64,000 bases of DNA, taken from IMG/VR virus record IMGVR_UViG_3300002895_000002, positions 96,001 to 160,000 of that record; one strand, written 5' to 3'. The stretch comes from a virus. Taxonomy: Duplodnaviria > Caudoviricetes. Within the stretch, counting starts at the first letter, position 1. Every line of letters starts with the position of its first letter. Position numbers and translations under genes: made by a program. Shown here piece by piece: positions 48,999-54,339 of this stretch. The notes under the pieces were generated by a model that was not told where the DNA came from, did no database searches, and saw only the letters and a program-made list of their open reading frames with translations.

Positions 48999-49862
48999 AT
49001 GTCTCAATTTTCCACCACTGATTTCTTTCTAACAGATTTTCAACGGCTCATTTGGGCCGATAACTATCGGGATCCCCAACATGATCCGACGGTGGAAGCA
49101 ACATTTCGACGAATGGCTGCAACAATCTTCGCCAATGAATCTGAGGAGCTCCAGCAGGAACTCTTTGATCAACAACTCATGGCCAAGATCTTCTTCGGTG
49201 GTCGCGTGTATAACCTCGGTCGTGGCCTGAAGAACGTCAATGCTTTCAACTGCTATGCGGCTCAGCGGTCCACCATGCCAGTTGACTCCATCTCCAACAT
49301 CTTCGCTGATATCACCAATGCAGCGGAGATCCTGAAGACCGAGGGCGGCATTGGGTTCAACTTTAACCACATCAGACCGAAGGGTACTCTCATCAAGGGC
49401 GTCGGTGTTGGTACTCCGGGTGTCCTGGCTTTCATGGAGATTCAGGACAAGACCGCCGATGTCATCACCCGTGGTTCTACCGGTGACATTATCCAGGCCG
49501 ACGAGAATACTCCGACCAAGAAGAAGATCCGCAAGGGCGCTCAGATATCCCTGTTGGACTGCCGCCATCCGGAAATCTTCGCCTACATCGATGCCAAGAA
49601 GATCCCCAACCGGTTTGTTTGGTTCAACATGTCGGTAATTATTACGGACCGGTTTATGGAAAGATGTTTAGAAAATATAAATAAAATAGTTATTGAACTA
49701 AATGATGGAACAAAACATGAACTAGACCCCAATGAAGAAATAGAAATAGATGGGGTTATAATGACAGCGAAGGAATATAAAGATGGGTGTGAAAATAATG
49801 CCACCAAAAGACGAATTTATCAAGATGATAAAACAATCAGTTCTTCTGAAAGATGTAGCTGA
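48999..49862 (+). CDS. nrdJ: Class II ribonucleotide reductase, fragment a
   Basis: FFGGRV; AFNCY (redox Cys); GGIGFNF; RKGAQ; FNMSV; AT-rich non-RNR tail after ~49665. Confidence 0.88.
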   Translation: MSQFSTTDFFLTDFQRLIWADNYRDPQHDPTVEATFRRMAATIFANESEELQQELFDQQLMAKIFFGGRVYNLGRGLKNVNAFNCYAAQRSTMPVDSISNIFADITNAAEILKTEGGIGFNFNHIRPKGTLIKGVGVGTPGVLAFMEIQDKTADVITRGSTGDIIQADENTPTKKKIRKGAQISLLDCRHPEIFAYIDAKKIPNRFVWFNMSVIITDRFMERCLENINKIVIELNDGTKHELDPNEEIEIDGVIMTAKEYKDGCENNATKRRIYQDDKTISSSERCS

Positions 49863-50695
49863 ATATTATAAAGTAAGCCAACAATCAATAATTAAATGGA
49901 TGAAAAAATATAACATCTATGATGAATTTAATTTTAAGCGTAATGTTGGTAAAGGAAATCTTGGAAAAACAATAATTTGTTCCGAAGAACTAATAATTCG
50001 ATTAAGAAAAATGGCAGATAATCGGAAAGGACAACCCGGCCATAAAAGAATACAAAGAATAAAGGAAAGGTGTTATATATGTGAACACGAATTTATAAAA
50101 AAAGAATCTGACGAAAAAAAAGTATGTTCTAAAAAATGTGCAATAGTTCTTCGAAGTATTGAAAATATAAAATCTATAAATGTGGTGTGCACATATTGCG
50201 GTACATTTATTGAAAAACCACTGTCTCTCATCAAAGAACATAATTTTTGTGATTATAATTGTTGTAATGCATGGCGAAAAGGAAAAACATATGAAGAACT
50301 ATATGGTGAAGATAAAGCAAATATTATTAAACAAAAAATAATGGCAAATAGATCAGAAAATACTATTATGGTTCTTACTCGTCCACATATCAAACTCAAA
50401 AAATGAAATGATTTCTAATGGGTTATATGATGGATTCCAAACTTCAAAGAAAATGTATCAATTTGAAATAGATGAATATAATCATGATTTACAATTATGT
50501 TTAGAAATTGACGGCGATTATTGGCATAATTATCCTTATGGAACACAACAAGATAAAAGGAAAAATACATTTCTTGCTAATAAGGGATTTACTGTATTAA
50601 GAATATGGGAACATGATATAAACACTAATTTGGGTGGTTGTATTGAAAAAATTAAGGAGACTATTGAATGCTTAAGCTCTCAAGCAAAGAAATAA
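49783..50695 (+). mobile_element. Vsr/DUF559-like homing endonuclease inside nrdJ, +1 frameshift
   Basis: Zn fingers CxxC; EIDEY..LEIDGDYWH..DKRKN..GFTVLRIWE; the two ORFs join if the A6 run 50398-50403 loses one A; late promoter at 49676. Confidence 0.8.
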
Positions 50696-52209
50696 AGAAC
50701 GTAAGAAATGGTGGTGACTGGGACCTGTGGTTCCCTGACATCAAGCATCCCGAGTACGACAAGCTCTGGAAGGGTGACTTCGATGCATGGGAAGCTGCCG
50801 GTCTTCCCAAGGTCATCTATCAGACCATCAAGGCACGGGAGCTCTGGGATAAGCTCATCCAAAACACCTACACCAGGAACGAGCCAGGCATTCTCTTCAT
50901 CGACAATGCCGAGAAGAATAACAACCTCACCAGGTACATGAAAGTGACGGGTGTGAACCCCTGCGGCGAGATCCTGATGTGTGCTGATCCTGGCATCGTG
51001 GAGATCGACGGTGTTATCTATGAGTACCTCGGTGACATCTGTAACCTCGGTGCTATCAACCTCACCCAGTTCTTCACCATCGAGAACGGCTTTGCCTGGG
51101 ATGCTTTCAAAGAGTCCGTAGCAGTGCTCGTCCGTGCTCTGGATAACGTCATCGACATCTCTGGGTATCCGCTGGAGAAGATCAAGAACGCCGCCATGCT
51201 TCGCCGTAAAATCGGCTGTGGTGTCATGGGATACGGCTCGTTGCTCTTCATGATGGGCTTCAAGTACGGCTCCCAGAAGGCCAACGAGTTCACCGAAGTG
51301 CTAATGAAAGAGTACGCCAATGCTGCATATCAGGCATCGGCCATGCTCGCCAAGGAGAAGGGTGCATTCCCGCTCTGGAAACCCGAGATGATCAACGATG
51401 GGTACATCGGCAACTCCGGGATGCTCACCGATGAAACACTGGACCTCATAGCAGCACACGGTCTCCGTAATGCTCAGCTGATGACCATCGCCCCGACAGG
51501 CACCACATCCATCTTTGCCGGTCTCGTCAGCGGCGGTGTTGAGCCGGTCTTCGAGAAGGAGTACACCCGGTGGGTCATCTCCAACCACAGAGCAGAGGAG
51601 CTTCTGGAAGGGCTCGATGCTCCTGACTACCGCAACGGTCAGTTCGTTGAGACGAAGGACTTCAAGTTCTCTATGGCTGGGGATGAGAAGGTCCTAGTGT
51701 CTCTGGATGGCACCCTGATGATCGACCAGAATCATGGCCTTCGCAAGAAAGAGATCTGCGAGGATTACGGTTGGTACTGGGCGAAGAAGCACCGCGATCC
51801 GGATGCCGTGACCTTTGCCAAACGCCTCGGCATCTACAAGACTGCCATGGAGTTGTCAGTCAAGGAGCACATGGATGCATTTAAAGTTATGTCTAAAGCA
51901 GTTGATATGTCAATTAGTAAATGTGTTGATGTTGAAACCACTATGGTCGAAATAGATGGGAAGATTGTTTATCTTGATGAACTGGAATATGGGGAGGAAG
52001 ATTCCTTTGTCCAAATGTCCGGCATGATAAAAAATCATAATCACATTGATGTTCCGATTAAAGCAACATATAATAATGGAATCACCGATGTGGTAGAAAT
52101 AACTTTTTCTGATCGGTCCTCAATCATATGTACACCCAACCACCGGTTATATACCGAAAATGGGTTTGAGCCGGCTATTGAAATTTTGGTAGGAACAAAA
52201 ATTGTGTAA
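50668..52209 (+). CDS. nrdJ: Class II RNR fragment b fused to N-terminal split intein
   Basis: Own AAGGAG RBS; GVNPCGEI; ICNLGAINL; IAPTGTTS; GGVEP; SISK then intein. Confidence 0.9.
   Translation: MLKLSSKEIKNVRNGGDWDLWFPDIKHPEYDKLWKGDFDAWEAAGLPKVIYQTIKARELWDKLIQNTYTRNEPGILFIDNAEKNNNLTRYMKVTGVNPCGEILMCADPGIVEIDGVIYEYLGDICNLGAINLTQFFTIENGFAWDAFKESVAVLVRALDNVIDISGYPLEKIKNAAMLRRKIGCGVMGYGSLLFMMGFKYGSQKANEFTEVLMKEYANAAYQASAMLAKEKGAFPLWKPEMINDGYIGNSGMLTDETLDLIAAHGLRNAQLMTIAPTGTTSIFAGLVSGGVEPVFEKEYTRWVISNHRAEELLEGLDAPDYRNGQFVETKDFKFSMAGDEKVLVSLDGTLMIDQNHGLRKKEICEDYGWYWAKKHRDPDAVTFAKRLGIYKTAMELSVKEHMDAFKVMSKAVDMSISKCVDVETTMVEIDGKIVYLDELEYGEEDSFVQMSGMIKNHNHIDVPIKATYNNGITDVVEITFSDRSSIICTPNHRLYTENGFEPAIEILVGTKIV
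51922..52209 (+). mobile_element. Split intein N-part (95 aa)
   Basis: Starts CVDVETT after SISK; block B CTPNHRLYT; ends EILVGTKIV-stop. Confidence 0.88.
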
Positions 52210-52223
52210 ACATAACCATCTTA

Positions 52224-52265
52224 TATAAATAGATATACTCATATTGACAAAGAGGATCTATTTAT
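52224..52265 (+). promoter_or_regulatory. Late promoter plus inverted repeat occluding the HE start
   Basis: ataaatagat/atctatttat arms; the 3' arm overlaps ATG 52264. Confidence 0.6.
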
Positions 52266-53346
52266 GCGAAATGTTGTTAAAAACACAATTCATCGATGGA
52301 ATAAGACGATGGATTTATCGCAGTATTCCATCGATGAATTGGAGGAATTCTTACAAAAAAAATTATATTGACTTTCCGAGAAATGTTAGGTATAATATAG
52401 GAAAGTGGATTGGTTCAGGGAAACCATTATCTGATTATTCTATTGCCGCAGCAGCACAACATCGGTCTGTCTTTTCTACTACCTATATTGCAGAGAAAAA
52501 TAAAAGGTATATAGAAAGTCTTCCGGAAAATGAAAAAAAGATACGGTATAAAAAATCATGTGAGAAGGGGCAAATAACACGAAAAGAGAGACACGGTTCT
52601 ATTTCCGAATCTTATCGTAAAGGGTTAATCCTAAAGGGCCAACGAACCGCATTACTATTAGGAATAACCGACACATTGTCTGATACTGAATTATTGTCTT
52701 TATCCGGTTACCAAAAGAAAAATAATTACCAGTTATTAACGGAAAGTGAAAAAGAGAAAAAAAGAATAGCCTGGAAAAAACAAATCTTAAAAATACCAAT
52801 GTGTTTGAAATCATCATTTCAGAATATCCCATTTTTTCAACCGTCGATGTGAACCAGTTGTCGGATGAAGAAATAGAAACCTGGTATAGATGTTACCGAT
52901 CAATAATGTCTATTAGAAGAATGAACAATAAACATCATTCTTATGGGAGATCAGGTCATTATTATTCTAGTAAAACACGAAAGAAACATTATTACAGATC
53001 ATCATATGAATTGAAGTTACTACAAATTCTAGATGAATTTGAATTTGTGATCGATTATATGACAGAACCGTACCACATTACATTAGACATAGGAAAAAGA
53101 TATGTTCCCGATTTTGTGATTGAAACTAAAAATGGTCGAATAGTAGTTGAAGTAAAACCAACGTTTAAACTAAAAGAATTTCTCGAATCTAAAGGTTATC
53201 AATTATTTTCTCAGCTATCCAATTTCGTTATTATGACCACCGAAGAAATAGACCAAGGAGAAGAAAATGTCAGATCCCAGATTGTTGAATATACAAAAAA
53301 CGTCAGATCGCATACCAGCGAGCTACAGATCAGAAAAAACGATTGA
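52264..53346 (+). mobile_element. TnsA-like PD-(D/E)XK homing endonuclease between split-intein halves, two frameshifts
   Basis: YRSSYELK..RYVPDF..VVEVKP; continuity needs -1 at A8 52355-52362 and +1 at A6 52775-52780. Confidence 0.75.
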
Positions 53347-53542
53347 AGATATAAAAAATGACCTTAATTCACTAAATTGGGATGATGTAACCAACCAACA
53401 TTTATTTAACCTGCGGGCTGTTATTTTTCCTCAACCGAAAACTGTAACTGGAATTCGTATGGTTGGAAAAAAACAAACCGGGGACCTAGAAATAGATCAT
53501 CCATCACATTCTTATTATGCAAATGGTGTACCTACTCATAAT
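53267..53542 (+). mobile_element. Split intein C-part (92 aa, long N-terminal extension)
   Basis: TGDLEID..SYYANGVPTHN followed by Thr+1. Confidence 0.88.
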
Positions 53543-54268
53543 ACAGTGAACCTCCCAGCTGATTATCCATATGACGATTTTGACAAACTCTTCAGGGATG
53601 CATGGAAGAGCGGTGTACGGGGTATCACTACCTACCGTGAAGGCACCATGACAGCGGTCCTCGAGACCAACAAGAAGAAGGACAAAGAGACCAAGAAGGC
53701 CAAGGAAGAGCTGAAGGACTTCTACGAGGAATGGGAAGGGCATGAGGACGGCCGTGTTCGCATAGACGATGTCCAACTTCCGTCCGAGTACCCCATGACC
53801 GGTTTCAAGATCGTCTCTGAAGGCCGCAAGTGGTACATCTCCGTTGCGTTCAAAGACAAAAAGATGACCAAGCCGTTTGGCATCTTCGTCACGACGAATC
53901 ACCGTGAAAATGACGTGAAAACGTACTCTGCTCTTTCGGCCATGGAGCAGTTGGCTACTGAAGCAGGCATCCTTGAGCGGATTATCGAGGACAATCGTAA
54001 GAAGTATGCTGGCCAGACCAATATCAATAAGCTGGCTCGGACTATCAGCCTTCTGTTGCGACACAACGTGGACATCGCTCTCATCGTAAAGACCCTCGAT
54101 GCTCTCGATGACATCCCGGTGTTCTCATTCATCTACCGCATCAAGAAGTTCCTCACCAAGTACATCACCGAGATGGAGAACGGAATGAGTTGTCCTGAGT
54201 GTGGTGAAACGTTGATCTACACCGAGGGATGCATCAAATGCTCTCAGTGTGCATACAGTAAATGCTAA
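53267..54268 (+). CDS. nrdJ: C-terminal split intein fused to class II RNR fragment c (TSCPD-like domain and Zn ribbon)
   Basis: AAGGAG RBS; THN|TVNLP; AWKSGVRGITTYR; CPEC..EGCIKCSQCAYSKC. Confidence 0.9.
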   Translation: MSDPRLLNIQKTSDRIPASYRSEKTIEDIKNDLNSLNWDDVTNQHLFNLRAVIFPQPKTVTGIRMVGKKQTGDLEIDHPSHSYYANGVPTHNTVNLPADYPYDDFDKLFRDAWKSGVRGITTYREGTMTAVLETNKKKDKETKKAKEELKDFYEEWEGHEDGRVRIDDVQLPSEYPMTGFKIVSEGRKWYISVAFKDKKMTKPFGIFVTTNHRENDVKTYSALSAMEQLATEAGILERIIEDNRKKYAGQTNINKLARTISLLLRHNVDIALIVKTLDALDDIPVFSFIYRIKKFLTKYITEMENGMSCPECGETLIYTEGCIKCSQCAYSKC

Positions 54269-54279
54269 GACGAAAAAGA

Positions 54280-54321
54280 GAAAATGGCGGGTTCTATAAA
54301 TAAGTAGAATCCGCCATTTTC
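54280..54321 (+). promoter_or_regulatory. Long hairpin with late promoter TATAAATA in the loop
   Basis: gaaaatggcgggttcta/tagaatccgccattttc. Confidence 0.7.
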
Positions 54322-54339
54322 TATTTTTTGGAGAATATA

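What the first reader, a model, noticed from the sequence alone, without database searches (positions are those of the whole stretch)
49620..50720. Intein-less, intron-less break that separates RNR active-site cysteines onto two polypeptides
RNR homology stops at FNMSVIITDRFME (~49661) and resumes at VRNGGDWDLWFPD (50701). The first redox Cys (AFNCY) is in piece a; NPCGE and the second Cys (ICNLG) are in piece b. The HE runs to 50695 and overlaps a new AAGGAG-ATG (50668), leaving no room for a group I core, and there is no intein HN-C/S/T end. Piece a gains a ~65-aa tail (CLENINKIVIELNDG..IMTAKE) that faintly resembles a decayed intein N-fragment and contains a late promoter (49676).
Basis: partly seen in the sequence, partly recalled or inferred. 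Interest (0 to 1): 0.7.

Follow-up and report, generated by a model that had tools for sequence, protein, structure and literature searches.

The report
Endonuclease-split phage ribonucleotide reductase with clasp tails
A selfish DNA-cutting-enzyme gene has cut this phage's only ribonucleotide reductase gene in two without any intron or intein, and it brought along a conserved peptide tail and head that probably clip the two halves back together, a known trick seen here in a new enzyme class and with a tail related to the one on phage T4 topoisomerase.

Summary
The class II ribonucleotide reductase gene (nrdJ) stops at FME(R) (49661/49664) and resumes at VRNGGDWD (50701). The redox Cys (FNCY) lies in piece a; NPCGE and CNLG lie in piece b.

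The 1036-bp AT-rich insert (49665-50700) is a free-standing Vsr-like/EDxHD homing-endonuclease cassette. It supplies a 66-aa tail and stop codon for piece a, and AAGGAG-ATG plus an 11-aa head for piece b.

- **Recent mobility:** close relatives carry the intact 868-aa gene. An occupied/empty allele pair differs only by the insert plus 31 and 18 nt of recoded flank.
- **No splicing route:** no intron was detected, and intein catalytic positions are not conserved.
- **Conserved tail and head (new here):** both recur in at least 7 very divergent RNR lineages (tail 52-60% identical, exteins 22-32%). Synonymous codon changes show selection on the peptide. Two lineages have lost the endonuclease but kept both.
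- **Link to T4:** the tail is predicted to fold as four β-strands plus a helix. It matches the C-terminal extension of T4 topoisomerase gp39 (hhalign 87%, P 4e-6; Foldseek hit to 8yo3_C). Resemblance to intein N-fragments is weaker.

The kind is known (Aeh1 nrdA/mobE; the T4 MobA element). This scan has met it before on other DNA (nrdA, DNA polymerase), but not this cassette.

The parts
48999..49664 (+). nrdJ-a native part (class II RNR N-terminal third, through ..FNMSVIITDRFMER). It holds the redox Cys of FNCY. The longest ORF starts at GTG 48948; the likely start is ATG 48999.
   Evidence: Pfam PF02867 E 9e-23. Alignment to intact homologues. PDB 1xje and 1zyz matches.
49634..49664 (+). Recoded left flank carried with the cassette. 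It has 10 differences in 31 nt from the empty-site allele L007: six are silent third-position changes, four recode HA to ER.
   Evidence: L005 (occupied) against L007 (empty) comparison.
49665..49862 (+). Cassette-encoded C-terminal tail of piece a plus its stop codon. The conserved core is about 49665-49781 (CLENINKIVIELNDGTKHELDPNEEIEIDGVIMTAKEYK). The last 26 codons overlap the endonuclease start and are not conserved.
   Evidence: Exhaustive phmmer finds the tail at the C-termini of divergent RNR a-pieces. AF2 pLDDT is 80-88, four strands plus a helix. hhalign to topoisomerase CTEs gives P 4.3e-6.
49676..49683 (+). T4-type late-promoter motif TATAAATA upstream of the endonuclease gene, inside the tail ORF.
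   Evidence: 17 copies in the window against 1.5 expected. The same feature is described in endonuclease leaders in PMC2677866.
49783..50406 (+). Homing endonuclease, N-terminal DNA-binding part (HTH and Zn-finger-like). An AAGGAA Shine-Dalgarno lies at 49770-49775. The frame is cut by an extra A in the A6 run at 50398-50403.
   Evidence: ORF list. L005 has A5 and one ORF of 303/289 aa.
50408..50695 (+). Homing endonuclease, Vsr-like/EDxHD nuclease domain (DUF559), in the +1 frame relative to the N-terminal part.
   Evidence: Pfam PF04480 E 4e-10. Best PDB hit is 3r3p, I-Bth0305I, E 0.002.
50654..50659 (+). Shine-Dalgarno AAGGAG for piece b, 8 nt before the ATG and inside the endonuclease 3' end.
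   Evidence: Sequence. A GGAG is conserved before the head ATG in L009, L012 and L014.
50668..50700 (+). Cassette-encoded N-terminal head of piece b (MLKLSSKEIKN).
   Evidence: Heads are conserved in 6 lineages, 75-81% identity over 16 aa in the two lineages measured, with synonymous codon changes.
50701..50718 (+). Recoded right flank (VRNGGD replaces VEADDT/VEADGD). It has 12 differences in 18 nt from the empty allele.
   Evidence: VRxxG is also part of the conserved head in other lineages.
50719..51921 (+). nrdJ-b native part, with NPCGE (thiyl-radical Cys) and CNLG (second redox Cys).
   Evidence: Pfam PF02867 E 1e-67. PDB 1xje E 1e-36.
51922..52209 (+). Context: N-fragment of a true split intein (95 aa, Cys1, TPNH) fused to piece b.
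   Evidence: Pfam Intein_splicing E 4e-4. Absent from L005, L007 and L008, which read SISK|TVNLP.
52244..53346 (+). Context: second free-standing endonuclease region (two overlapping ORFs; TnsA-like / PD-(D/E)xK), with TATAAATA at 52224.
   Evidence: Pfam and PHROG hits. Motif.
53267..54268 (+). Context: intein C-fragment (to ..THN, 53542) followed by nrdJ-c (TVNLP.., with a C-terminal Cys-rich Zn ribbon).

Best explanation
**What it is.** A mobile cassette built around a free-standing Vsr-like (EDxHD-type) homing endonuclease gene homed into the phage's only ribonucleotide reductase gene, class II nrdJ. It entered between the codons for FME(A) and V. There is no intron and no intein, so the gene is now two genes at this point. 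A separate true split intein downstream makes three pieces in all.

**What the cassette supplies.**
- An in-frame C-terminal extension (tail) and stop codon for NrdJ-a.
- Its own late promoter and the endonuclease gene.
- A Shine-Dalgarno, an ATG and an 11-residue N-terminal extension (head) for NrdJ-b.

**How it most likely works.** NrdJ-a and NrdJ-b are translated separately. They reassemble non-covalently into one alpha/beta barrel whose active site is composite: one redox Cys comes from piece a; the radical Cys and the second redox Cys come from piece b. The acidic tail, a small beta-sheet module, and the basic head form an external clasp that promotes or stabilises assembly. This parallels the tails of Aeh1 NrdA-a/b and the gp39/gp60 insertion of T4 topoisomerase II.

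**Shown versus inferred.**
- Shown: the anatomy, the occupied and empty alleles, recent mobility, and protein-level conservation of tail and head, including in lineages that have lost the endonuclease.
- Inferred: separate translation, reassembly, enzymatic activity, and the clasp role.
For: **Insertion into an intact gene**
- Intact 868-aa alleles exist in close relatives L007 and L008.
- L005 (occupied) and L007 (empty) differ by the insert plus 10 changes in 31 nt on the left and 12 in 18 nt on the right. Beyond that there are 0 differences in the next 287 nt on the right, and about 99% identity on the left.
- The insert is 99.3-99.5% identical between the window and L005, while the flanking exteins are 89.6% and 93.4% identical.

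**Endonuclease identity**
- DUF559, E 4e-10.
- Best solved relative is I-Bth0305I (3r3p), E 0.002.

**No splicing route**
- Rfam scans were negative.
- HE-less relatives have spacers of only 84 and 21 nt.
- Intein catalytic positions are not conserved.

**Tail and head are under selection**
- The tail is 52-60% identical and the head 75-81% identical to very distant lineages. The endonuclease is 41% and the exteins 22-32% identical in the same comparisons.
- 33-50% of the identical tail residues use different codons.
- Lineages L012 and L013/14 lost the endonuclease but kept the tail, the head and a GGAG-ATG.

**No back-up enzyme**
- There is no other RNR large subunit, no NrdD and no NrdB in the 213-kb genome.

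**Charge and structure**
- The tail is acidic (pI 4.75; first 45 aa net -7) and the head basic (pI 9.7).
- AF2 folds the tail core confidently as four strands plus a helix, pLDDT 80-88.
- Pair model of a with b: ipSAE 0.87 against 0.01 for the best of 3 controls. That mark was reached by 51 of 78 solved complexes and 2 of 108 mismatched pairs. The runs share at least 91% of contacts and the partner pLDDT is at least 74. The interface includes tail residues 239-281 and head residues 1-22. Because intact RNR structures are solved, this pass may reflect likeness to them, not proof that these copies bind.

**Precedents**
- The tails of Aeh1 NrdA-a/b are essential for activity (PMC3045599).
- A Vsr-like endonuclease fractures an intein-less SbcD-like gene, leaving a 25-aa tail and a 9-aa head (PMC2677866).
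Against: - No transcript, protein or activity data exist for this uncultured phage.
- dN/dS in the exteins is low (0.04-0.10), but most of that divergence predates the recent insertion. It does not prove selection since the split in this lineage.
- The window's endonuclease is frameshifted, which shows decay of part of the element, or a homopolymer sequencing error.
- The tail and head are too short, and the sequences too few, for covariation to show that they pair.
- The head shows no significant similarity to the gp60 N-terminal extension (P 0.24).
Confidence: 0.82

Rival explanations
1. The insert is a self-splicing group I (or group II) intron that carries the endonuclease ORF. Splicing restores one nrdJ-a/b mRNA.
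For: Vsr-like endonucleases do occur in group I introns (recA of Bacillus and phage 0305phi8-36; PMC2677866). A U...G pair of splice sites can be drawn (..GAAAGATGT | ...AAAG | AAC..) by inspection.
Against: - No Rfam intron appeared at E<=10 in 6 kb or in the 1.16-kb insert alone. None appeared in six related loci.
- The intact endonuclease ORF leaves 121 nt upstream and 5 nt downstream. Its conserved nuclease domain runs to within about 35 nt of the insert's end.
- The insert is 28% GC, and its 5' part folds no better than shuffles (z -1.55).
- Relatives keep the same split with 84-nt and 21-nt spacers.
- The tail and head are conserved as peptides. An intron would not need that.
Confidence: 0.03
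2. The tail and head are an ultra-short split intein (Cys ... Asn) that trans-splices, or at least cleaves itself off, to give a mature enzyme.
For: - In this window the inserted peptide begins with Cys and ends with Asn. Removing it restores the exact spacing of intact homologues.
- The tail profile resembles the block B region of intein N-fragments (hhalign score 20.5 against a shuffle maximum of 15.4).
- 7 of the top 23 structural matches are inteins.
- The same gene family is rich in split inteins.
Against: - The +1 residue is Val or Ile in every lineage.
- The 'Cys1' slot reads C/V/Y/V/I/C/T, and the last head residue reads N/D/E/E/T/S.
- Block B TxxH is replaced by the conserved DPxE.
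- Tail plus head total 77 aa, with about 50 conserved, against at least about 130 for a Hint domain.
- No Pfam Hint or intein hit at E<=10.
- No intein appeared in a PDB sequence search with the tail profile.
Confidence: 0.03
3. The insertion simply killed nrdJ. The pieces are a decaying pseudogene and the phage relies on host nucleotide reduction.
For: - The cassette arrived recently (99.4% identity between phages), so little time has passed for decay to show.
- The endonuclease itself is already frameshifted in this window.
- The same gene carries a second interruption.
Against: - All catalytic motifs and all three ORFs are intact.
- A strong SD-ATG sits exactly in frame with piece b.
- The same split, tail and head persist in at least 7 deeply diverged lineages. 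Their a and b ORFs remain open where the contigs cover them, including two lineages without the endonuclease.
- Conservation is at the protein level.
- There is no other RNR in the genome.
- The biochemical precedent in Aeh1 showed full activity (PMC3045599).
Confidence: 0.08
4. One polypeptide is made by ribosomal bypassing or frameshifting across the insert, as in T4 gene 60.
For: The same genome has a topoisomerase gene split by a MobA-type element, whose relatives use bypassing (bioRxiv 10.1101/2022.08.31.505936).
Against: - The gap from the stop of piece a (49862) to the start of piece b (50668) is about 800 nt, against 50 nt in gene 60.
- Piece b has its own SD-ATG, and its frame runs without interruption from the ATG into the extein.
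- No take-off and landing codon arrangement is evident.
Confidence: 0.01

Closest known systems
Aeromonas phage Aeh1 nrdA-a / mobE / nrdA-b, the 'genes-in-pieces' class Ia RNR (Friedrich et al. 2007; Crona et al. 2011, PMC3045599)
   Same: - A free-standing homing endonuclease sits inside the RNR large-subunit gene, with no intron or intein.
- Active-site cysteines are partitioned between two polypeptides.
- Insert-derived, oppositely charged C- and N-terminal tails are present.
- The 3' end of the endonuclease overlaps the downstream piece.
- A late-promoter motif lies in the endonuclease leader.
   Different: - Class II (NrdJ, no small subunit) rather than class Ia.
- The break lies between the first redox Cys and the radical Cys, rather than between the radical Cys and the second redox Cys.
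- The endonuclease is Vsr-like/EDxHD rather than HNH.
- Charge polarity is reversed: here the tail is acidic and the head basic.
- The tail is longer and predicted to be a folded beta module.
- No biochemistry exists here.
MobA element of T4-like phages, which splits topoisomerase II into gp39 and gp60 with conserved CTE/NTE extensions (Manning & Atkins, bioRxiv 10.1101/2022.08.31.505936; cryo-EM in PMC11461880, PDB 8yo3)
   Same: - A conserved C-terminal extension of about 40-45 aa is out of frame with the endonuclease and overlaps it.
- Recoded, homologous flank sequence is carried by the element.
- Insertions are recent and repeated, and the extensions are kept after endonuclease loss.
- The NrdJ tail profile matches the topoisomerase CTE profile (hhalign 86.8%, P 4.3e-6, 0 of 300 shuffles).
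- The tail's AF2 model matches gp39 residues 476-517 in 8yo3_C.
   Different: - The host gene is nrdJ. The preprint states that MobA elements insert exclusively in the Topo2L gene.
- There is no bypass cassette.
- The head is short (11 aa) and not significantly similar to the gp60 NTE.
- The endonuclease is Vsr-like rather than HNH.
'Fractured genes' with Vsr-like free-standing endonucleases, and the intein-less SbcD-like locus (Dassa et al. 2009, PMC2677866)
   Same: - The same endonuclease family and the same layout.
- The 3' end of the endonuclease overlaps the downstream ORF (28 bp here; 6-69 bp there).
- TATAAATA lies in the endonuclease leader.
- The SbcD-like case also lacks an intein and has a 25-aa tail and a 9-aa head.
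   Different: - Most fractured genes, including NrdJ-1 and NrdJ-2, rely on functional split inteins at another site. This break has none.
- The SbcD-like case was a single locus with no evidence that its tails are conserved.

Membership tests
Endonuclease-generated genes-in-pieces with insert-derived tails (Aeh1 nrdA / T4 gp39-gp60 type) | A homing endonuclease ORF lies between two co-oriented halves of one gene. Close relatives have the uninterrupted gene. | tested here: met
   L007 and L008 carry intact 868-aa genes. L005 and L007 form an occupied/empty allele pair.
Endonuclease-generated genes-in-pieces with insert-derived tails (Aeh1 nrdA / T4 gp39-gp60 type) | Each half has its own translation signals: a stop for the upstream piece, and an SD plus ATG for the downstream piece. 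| tested here: met
   Stop at 49860-49862, AAGGAG at 50654-50659, ATG at 50668. A GGAG-ATG is conserved in other lineages.
Endonuclease-generated genes-in-pieces with insert-derived tails (Aeh1 nrdA / T4 gp39-gp60 type) | C- and N-terminal extensions are absent from uninterrupted homologues and conserved among split ones. | tested here: met
   112 of 114 scored homologues lack any insertion at the site. The tail and head are conserved in at least 7 lineages.
Endonuclease-generated genes-in-pieces with insert-derived tails (Aeh1 nrdA / T4 gp39-gp60 type) | The two polypeptides assemble into an active enzyme. | not testable with these tools
   Only a structure model is available: ipSAE 0.87 against 0.01 for the best control. 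That pass may come from likeness to solved intact RNRs.
Vsr-like / EDxHD homing endonucleases (I-Bth0305I family) | A Vsr-like (DUF559) catalytic domain related to I-Bth0305I. | tested here: met
   PF04480 E 4e-10. 3r3p E 0.002, aligned over the E.dG.YW...DK.K...G motifs.
Vsr-like / EDxHD homing endonucleases (I-Bth0305I family) | An intact reading frame and site-specific cleavage of the empty allele. | tested here: inconclusive
   The frame is broken in the window (A6 run at 50398-50403) but intact in L005. Cleavage cannot be tested here.
Split intein (fractured gene in the sense of Dassa et al.) | A conserved nucleophile at intein position 1, block B TxxH, a terminal Asn, and Cys/Ser/Thr at +1. 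| tested here: not met
   Position 1 reads C/V/Y/V/I/C/T. DPxE stands in place of TxxH. The last residue reads N/D/E/E/T/S, and +1 is V or I.
Split intein (fractured gene in the sense of Dassa et al.) | Recognisable Hint-domain sequence or fold. | tested here: inconclusive
   No Pfam or PDB sequence hit. However, hhalign to an intein N-fragment profile scored 20.5 against a shuffle maximum of 15.4. Seven inteins were among the top 23 VIA-align matches, at low Z of 2.2-3.3.
Group I / group II intron | A match to the ribozyme core covariance models, and room for the core outside the ORF. | tested here: not met
   No hit at E<=10 or at E<=0.1 in six related loci. Only 121 and 5 nt lie outside the endonuclease ORF. 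Relatives have spacers of 21-84 nt.
MobA-element CTE/NTE module (T4 gp39/gp60) | CTE sequence and fold. | tested here: met
   hhalign A3 against A6: 86.8%, P 4.3e-6, score 29.6 against a shuffle mean of 9.2 and maximum of 16.8. Foldseek 8yo3_C: probability 0.84, rmsd 1.3 A over 33 columns, 30% identity, but Foldseek E 0.84. VIA-align places the match on chain residues 476-517.
MobA-element CTE/NTE module (T4 gp39/gp60) | NTE sequence, insertion in the Topo2L gene, and a bypass cassette. | tested here: not met
   Head against NTE profile: P 0.24. The host gene is nrdJ. The frame of piece b is continuous from the ATG.

The most novel reading that the evidence does not exclude
The NrdJ tail is a true homologue of the C-terminal extension that the MobA element adds to T4 topoisomerase gp39. 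If so, one portable 'clasp' module travels with unrelated homing endonucleases (HNH, Vsr-like). It lets them split different essential genes (topoisomerase II, class II RNR) without any splicing. That module may itself be a vestige of a split intein that kept only its association strands. This would make endonuclease-borne clasps a third general answer to gene interruption, beside introns and inteins, with a common origin.
Probability: 0.4. Interest if true: 0.78.

Novelty: new variant of a known kind. Interest (0 to 1): 0.6.

Why it matters
Introns and inteins are the textbook ways a selfish endonuclease can sit inside an essential gene without killing it. Aeh1 NrdA and T4 gp39/gp60 showed a third way: insert-encoded tails that let the pieces reassemble. 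Each was treated as a special case tied to one gene.

This locus extends that picture in four ways:
- The same solution operates in a class II RNR, at a new site, with a Vsr-like endonuclease.
- Its tail and head form a conserved family that is better conserved than the endonuclease or the enzyme around it.
- The family survives loss of the endonuclease.
- The tail is related in sequence and predicted fold to the T4 gp39 extension, for which a cryo-EM structure exists.

That makes three ideas directly testable. Tail/head clasps may be portable between host genes. They may descend from split inteins. They might serve as small natural heterodimerisation tags for split proteins.

Tried and rejected
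- **Close relatives in phage collections:** blastn of the 5.5-kb region against GenBank phages found nothing. Scans of viral and metagenome contigs with the endonuclease found no close relative beyond one short contig.
- **RNA structure:** the 5' part of the insert has no fold beyond shuffles (z -1.55). No leader hairpin over the endonuclease RBS was seen.
- **Family searches with the tail:** Pfam, PHROGs, the ESM Atlas feature search and a PDB sequence search with the tail profile gave nothing. The PDB search returned only generic beta-hairpins.
- **Tail as a duplicate of the native RNR segment after the break:** not supported (hhalign P 0.14).
- **P0055 as a re-fused form:** this uninterrupted RNR has a contiguous 30-aa insertion at the same site. 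Its similarity to the tail is not significant (P 0.23).
- **Head against the gp60 NTE:** not significant (P 0.24).
- **Which intein region the extensions resemble:** the topoisomerase CTE profile aligns to block A of the intein profile (P 0.0033), while the NrdJ tail aligns to block B. The intein link is therefore ambiguous about which half of the Hint fold is involved.
- **dN/dS in the exteins:** uninformative about selection after the split, because the insertion is much younger than the divergence of the flanks.
- **Insert length in L005:** 1035 nt, a multiple of three. This is considered chance (a 1-in-3 outcome), because the endonuclease is in another frame and stop codons intervene.

Full report
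**1. The observation**

The window is bases 96001-160000 of a 213-kb IMG/VR virus record rated complete. TATAAATA occurs 17 times against 1.5 expected, so the phage uses T4-type late promoters.

Between 48.9 and 54.3 kb, three co-oriented ORFs carry ribonucleotide reductase (RNR) barrel homology (PF02867):
- piece a: 48948/48999-49862
- piece b: 50668-52209
- piece c: 53267-54268

Two AT-rich blocks (GC 0.28-0.32 against about 0.53) separate them.

Alignment with uninterrupted homologues shows that piece a is native up to ..FNMSVIITDRFME(R). Piece b is native from VRNGGDWDLWFPD.

- The redox Cys of FNCY is in piece a. From the matched ranges of the 1zyz hit it maps to yeast Rnr1 C218.
- NPCGE and CNLG are in piece b, aligned with T. 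maritima NrdJ (1xje).

The genome holds no other RNR large subunit, no NrdD and no NrdB. This three-piece class II enzyme is therefore the phage's only RNR.

**2. What the insert is**

The block 49665-50700 encodes a homing endonuclease:
- An N-terminal DNA-binding part at 49783-50406.
- A Vsr-like/DUF559 nuclease domain at 50408-50695 (E 4e-10). Its best solved relative is I-Bth0305I, 3r3p (E 0.002).

In the window the two parts are out of frame, because an A-run has six As (50398-50403). A 95%-identical relative has five As and one intact ORF (L005, Logan SRR24236065).

The endonuclease frame ends at 50695. It overlaps by 28 nt the ATG of piece b (50668), which follows AAGGAG at 50654-50659. 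TATAAATA lies at 49676.

All of this matches published features of free-standing Vsr-like endonucleases in fractured genes (PMC2677866).

**3. Occupied and empty alleles**

Two close relatives (L007, 95% identical; L008, 88%) carry an uninterrupted 868-aa nrdJ that reads ..DRFMHAVEADDTWDLWFPD...

L005 (occupied) and L007 (empty) are nearly identical around the site. The exceptions are:
- the insert itself;
- 10 changes in the 31 nt to its left, of which six are silent third-position changes and four recode HA to ER;
- 12 changes in the 18 nt to its right (VEADDT becomes VRNGGD).

Beyond these, the next 287 nt on the right show no difference.

The insert is 99.3-99.5% identical between the window and L005. 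Their flanking exteins are only 89.6% and 93.4% identical. This is the signature of recent homing of one cassette into diverged genomes, with recoded flanks travelling with it.

The second interruption (51922-53542) is a genuine split intein:
- It has Cys1, TPNH and THN|T.
- It carries a TnsA-like endonuclease.
- L005, L007 and L008 lack it and read SISK|TVNLP.

**4. Neither an intron nor an intein**

*Against an intron:*
- Infernal against all of Rfam at E<=10 found no intron in the 6-kb region or in the insert alone. A scan at E<=0.1 found none in six related loci.
- Only 121 nt before the intact endonuclease ORF, and 5 nt after it, are free of it.

*Against an intein:*
- In the window the inserted peptide happens to begin with Cys and end with Asn.
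- Across the family the first position reads C/V/Y/V/I/C/T. The last head residue reads N/D/E/E/T/S. The +1 residue is always Val or Ile. DPxE stands where block B TxxH would be.

Protein splicing is therefore excluded.

**5. The tail and head are a conserved family**

An exhaustive phmmer search of 1.8 billion representatives with the 66-aa tail found it at the C-termini of other RNR a-pieces, apart from one spurious repeat-protein hit. Those pieces come from very different, AT-rich phage-like contigs.

With context fetched, at least 7 lineages share the same break, a tail and a head:
- tail motif: KIxxELxDGxKxxLDPxExIExDGxxMxAxEY
- head motif: M[LI]K[LI]xSKxIKx[VI]RxxG

| Lineage | Endonuclease between a and b |
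|---|---|
| window / L005 | Vsr-like, present |
| L009 | Vsr-like, present |
| L010 / L011 | start of an L009-like endonuclease ORF, cut by the contig end |
| L015 | Vsr-like, present |
| L016 | Vsr-like, present |
| L012 | absent; 84-nt spacer with a GGAG |
| L013 / L014 | absent; 21-nt spacer with a GGAG |

Identity to the window, measured against these distant lineages:

| Element | Identity |
|---|---|
| head (16 aa) | 75-81% |
| tail | 52-60% |
| endonuclease | 41% |
| exteins | 22-32% |

One third to one half of the identical tail residues use different codons. Selection therefore acts on the peptides. This is the strongest evidence that the split enzyme works and that the tail and head matter.

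The tail is acidic (pI 4.75) and the head basic (pI 9.7). Aeh1 shows the same opposition of charges, with reversed polarity (PMC3045599).

**6. Structure**

AF2 predicts the tail core as four short strands plus a helix with pLDDT 80-88. It does so both within piece a and alone.

A pair model of a with b scored ipSAE 0.87, against 0.01 for the best of three controls:
- That mark was reached by 51 of 78 solved complexes and 2 of 108 mismatched pairs.
- The runs agree in at least 91% of contacts, and the partner pLDDT is at least 74.
- The confident interface includes tail residues 239-281 and head residues 1-22.

Because intact RNR structures are solved, this pass may only reflect likeness to them.

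**7. Relation to T4 gp39 and to inteins**

*Structural searches with the tail model:*
- A Foldseek search of the PDB gave no match at E<=0.001. Its most confident row was T4 topoisomerase II, 8yo3_C (E 0.84, probability 0.84, rmsd 1.3 A over 33 columns, 30% identity).
- VIA-align places that match on chain residues 476-517, the C-terminal extension of gp39.

*Profile comparison:*
- A profile of seven topoisomerase CTEs aligns to the NrdJ tail profile with 86.8% probability and P 4.3e-6.
- The score was 29.6. Across 300 column shuffles the mean was 9.2 and the maximum 16.8.

*In this genome:*
- The phage's own topoisomerase large subunit is also split, with a canonical CTE.
- That CTE matches the tail profile at P 1e-4.

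*What the literature says about the gp39/gp60 insertion:*
- The cryo-EM paper describes it as an external pendant and probable assembly chaperone (PMC11461880).
- Manning and Atkins describe the conserved CTE and NTE as exclusive to the Topo2L gene.

*Inteins:*
- Inteins are also enriched among the structural matches: 7 of the top 23 out of 48,161 chains, Z 2.2-3.3.
- The intein N-fragment profile scores above all shuffles (20.5 against a maximum of 15.4).
- There is no direct sequence hit, and the aligned intein region is ambiguous.

I treat intein ancestry as a lead, not a finding.

**8. Verdict**

The kind is known:
- Aeh1 nrdA/mobE.
- The SbcD-like locus of Dassa et al.
- The T4 MobA element.

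Notes from this scan report the same kind on other DNA: nrdA with HNH or GIY-YIG endonucleases, and a DNA polymerase. I found no description of an nrdJ version in four full-text searches.

What is new:
- the class II host gene and the site;
- the Vsr-like carrier;
- the family-wide conservation and the persistence after endonuclease loss;
- the link to the gp39 extension.

Noticed in passing
window 51922-53542: The second break in the same gene is a true split intein (IntN 95 aa, IntC 92 aa, THN|T at SISK/TVNLP). Between the halves is a TnsA-like/PD-(D/E)xK endonuclease in two overlapping ORFs, with TATAAATA at 52224. It is precisely absent from L005, L007 and L008.
   Followed up: partly
window 50398-50403: An A6 run (A5 in L005) frameshifts the Vsr-like endonuclease into 207-aa and 95-aa ORFs. 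This could be decay after fixation, transcriptional slippage, or a homopolymer assembly error.
   Followed up: partly
G000:C1:37907-41032 (L030), outside the window: The phage's topoisomerase II large-subunit gene is also split. ORF1 ends with a canonical MobA-type CTE (..WFEVELDGEKIVVNENDEVYVNGKWIKVTEL). A 365-aa ORF follows, then a short ORF with an NTE-like start (..RPNVRRS..DQDLDG) that stops after 47 aa. That arrangement may be a bypass cassette.
   Followed up: partly
L007:5673-6365: In the relative with intact nrdJ, a TnsA-like endonuclease gene sits free-standing just downstream of nrdJ. It is distantly related (31% identity over 103 aa, E 2e-4) to the endonuclease inside the window's split intein. 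This recalls mobE lying between nrdA and nrdB versus inside nrdA.
   Followed up: partly
L013/L014 3089-10408; L009 542-2329: AT-rich relatives have RNR genes in four or more pieces that combine split inteins, contiguous inteins (LAGLIDADG, HNH) and the tail/head break. One 135-aa piece is IntC plus 45 extein residues plus the tail.
   Followed up: no
window 54279-54322: Directly after nrdJ-c lies a 19-bp hairpin followed by a T-run. TATAAATA sits in its loop (54295-54302), so it looks like a terminator with an embedded late-promoter motif.
   Followed up: no
L005:2919-3695 (minus strand): The relative L005 has a GIY-YIG/NUMOD3 endonuclease gene immediately upstream of nrdJ-a. The window lacks it at that place.
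   Followed up: no
P0055 residues 222-258: This uninterrupted 923-aa RNR has a contiguous 30-aa insertion at exactly the a/b break site (FEKPEQKFALLKNGNEVEYFNEPPADTIHLRKGG). It may be a re-fused tail/head, but the similarity is not significant (P 0.23).
   Followed up: partly
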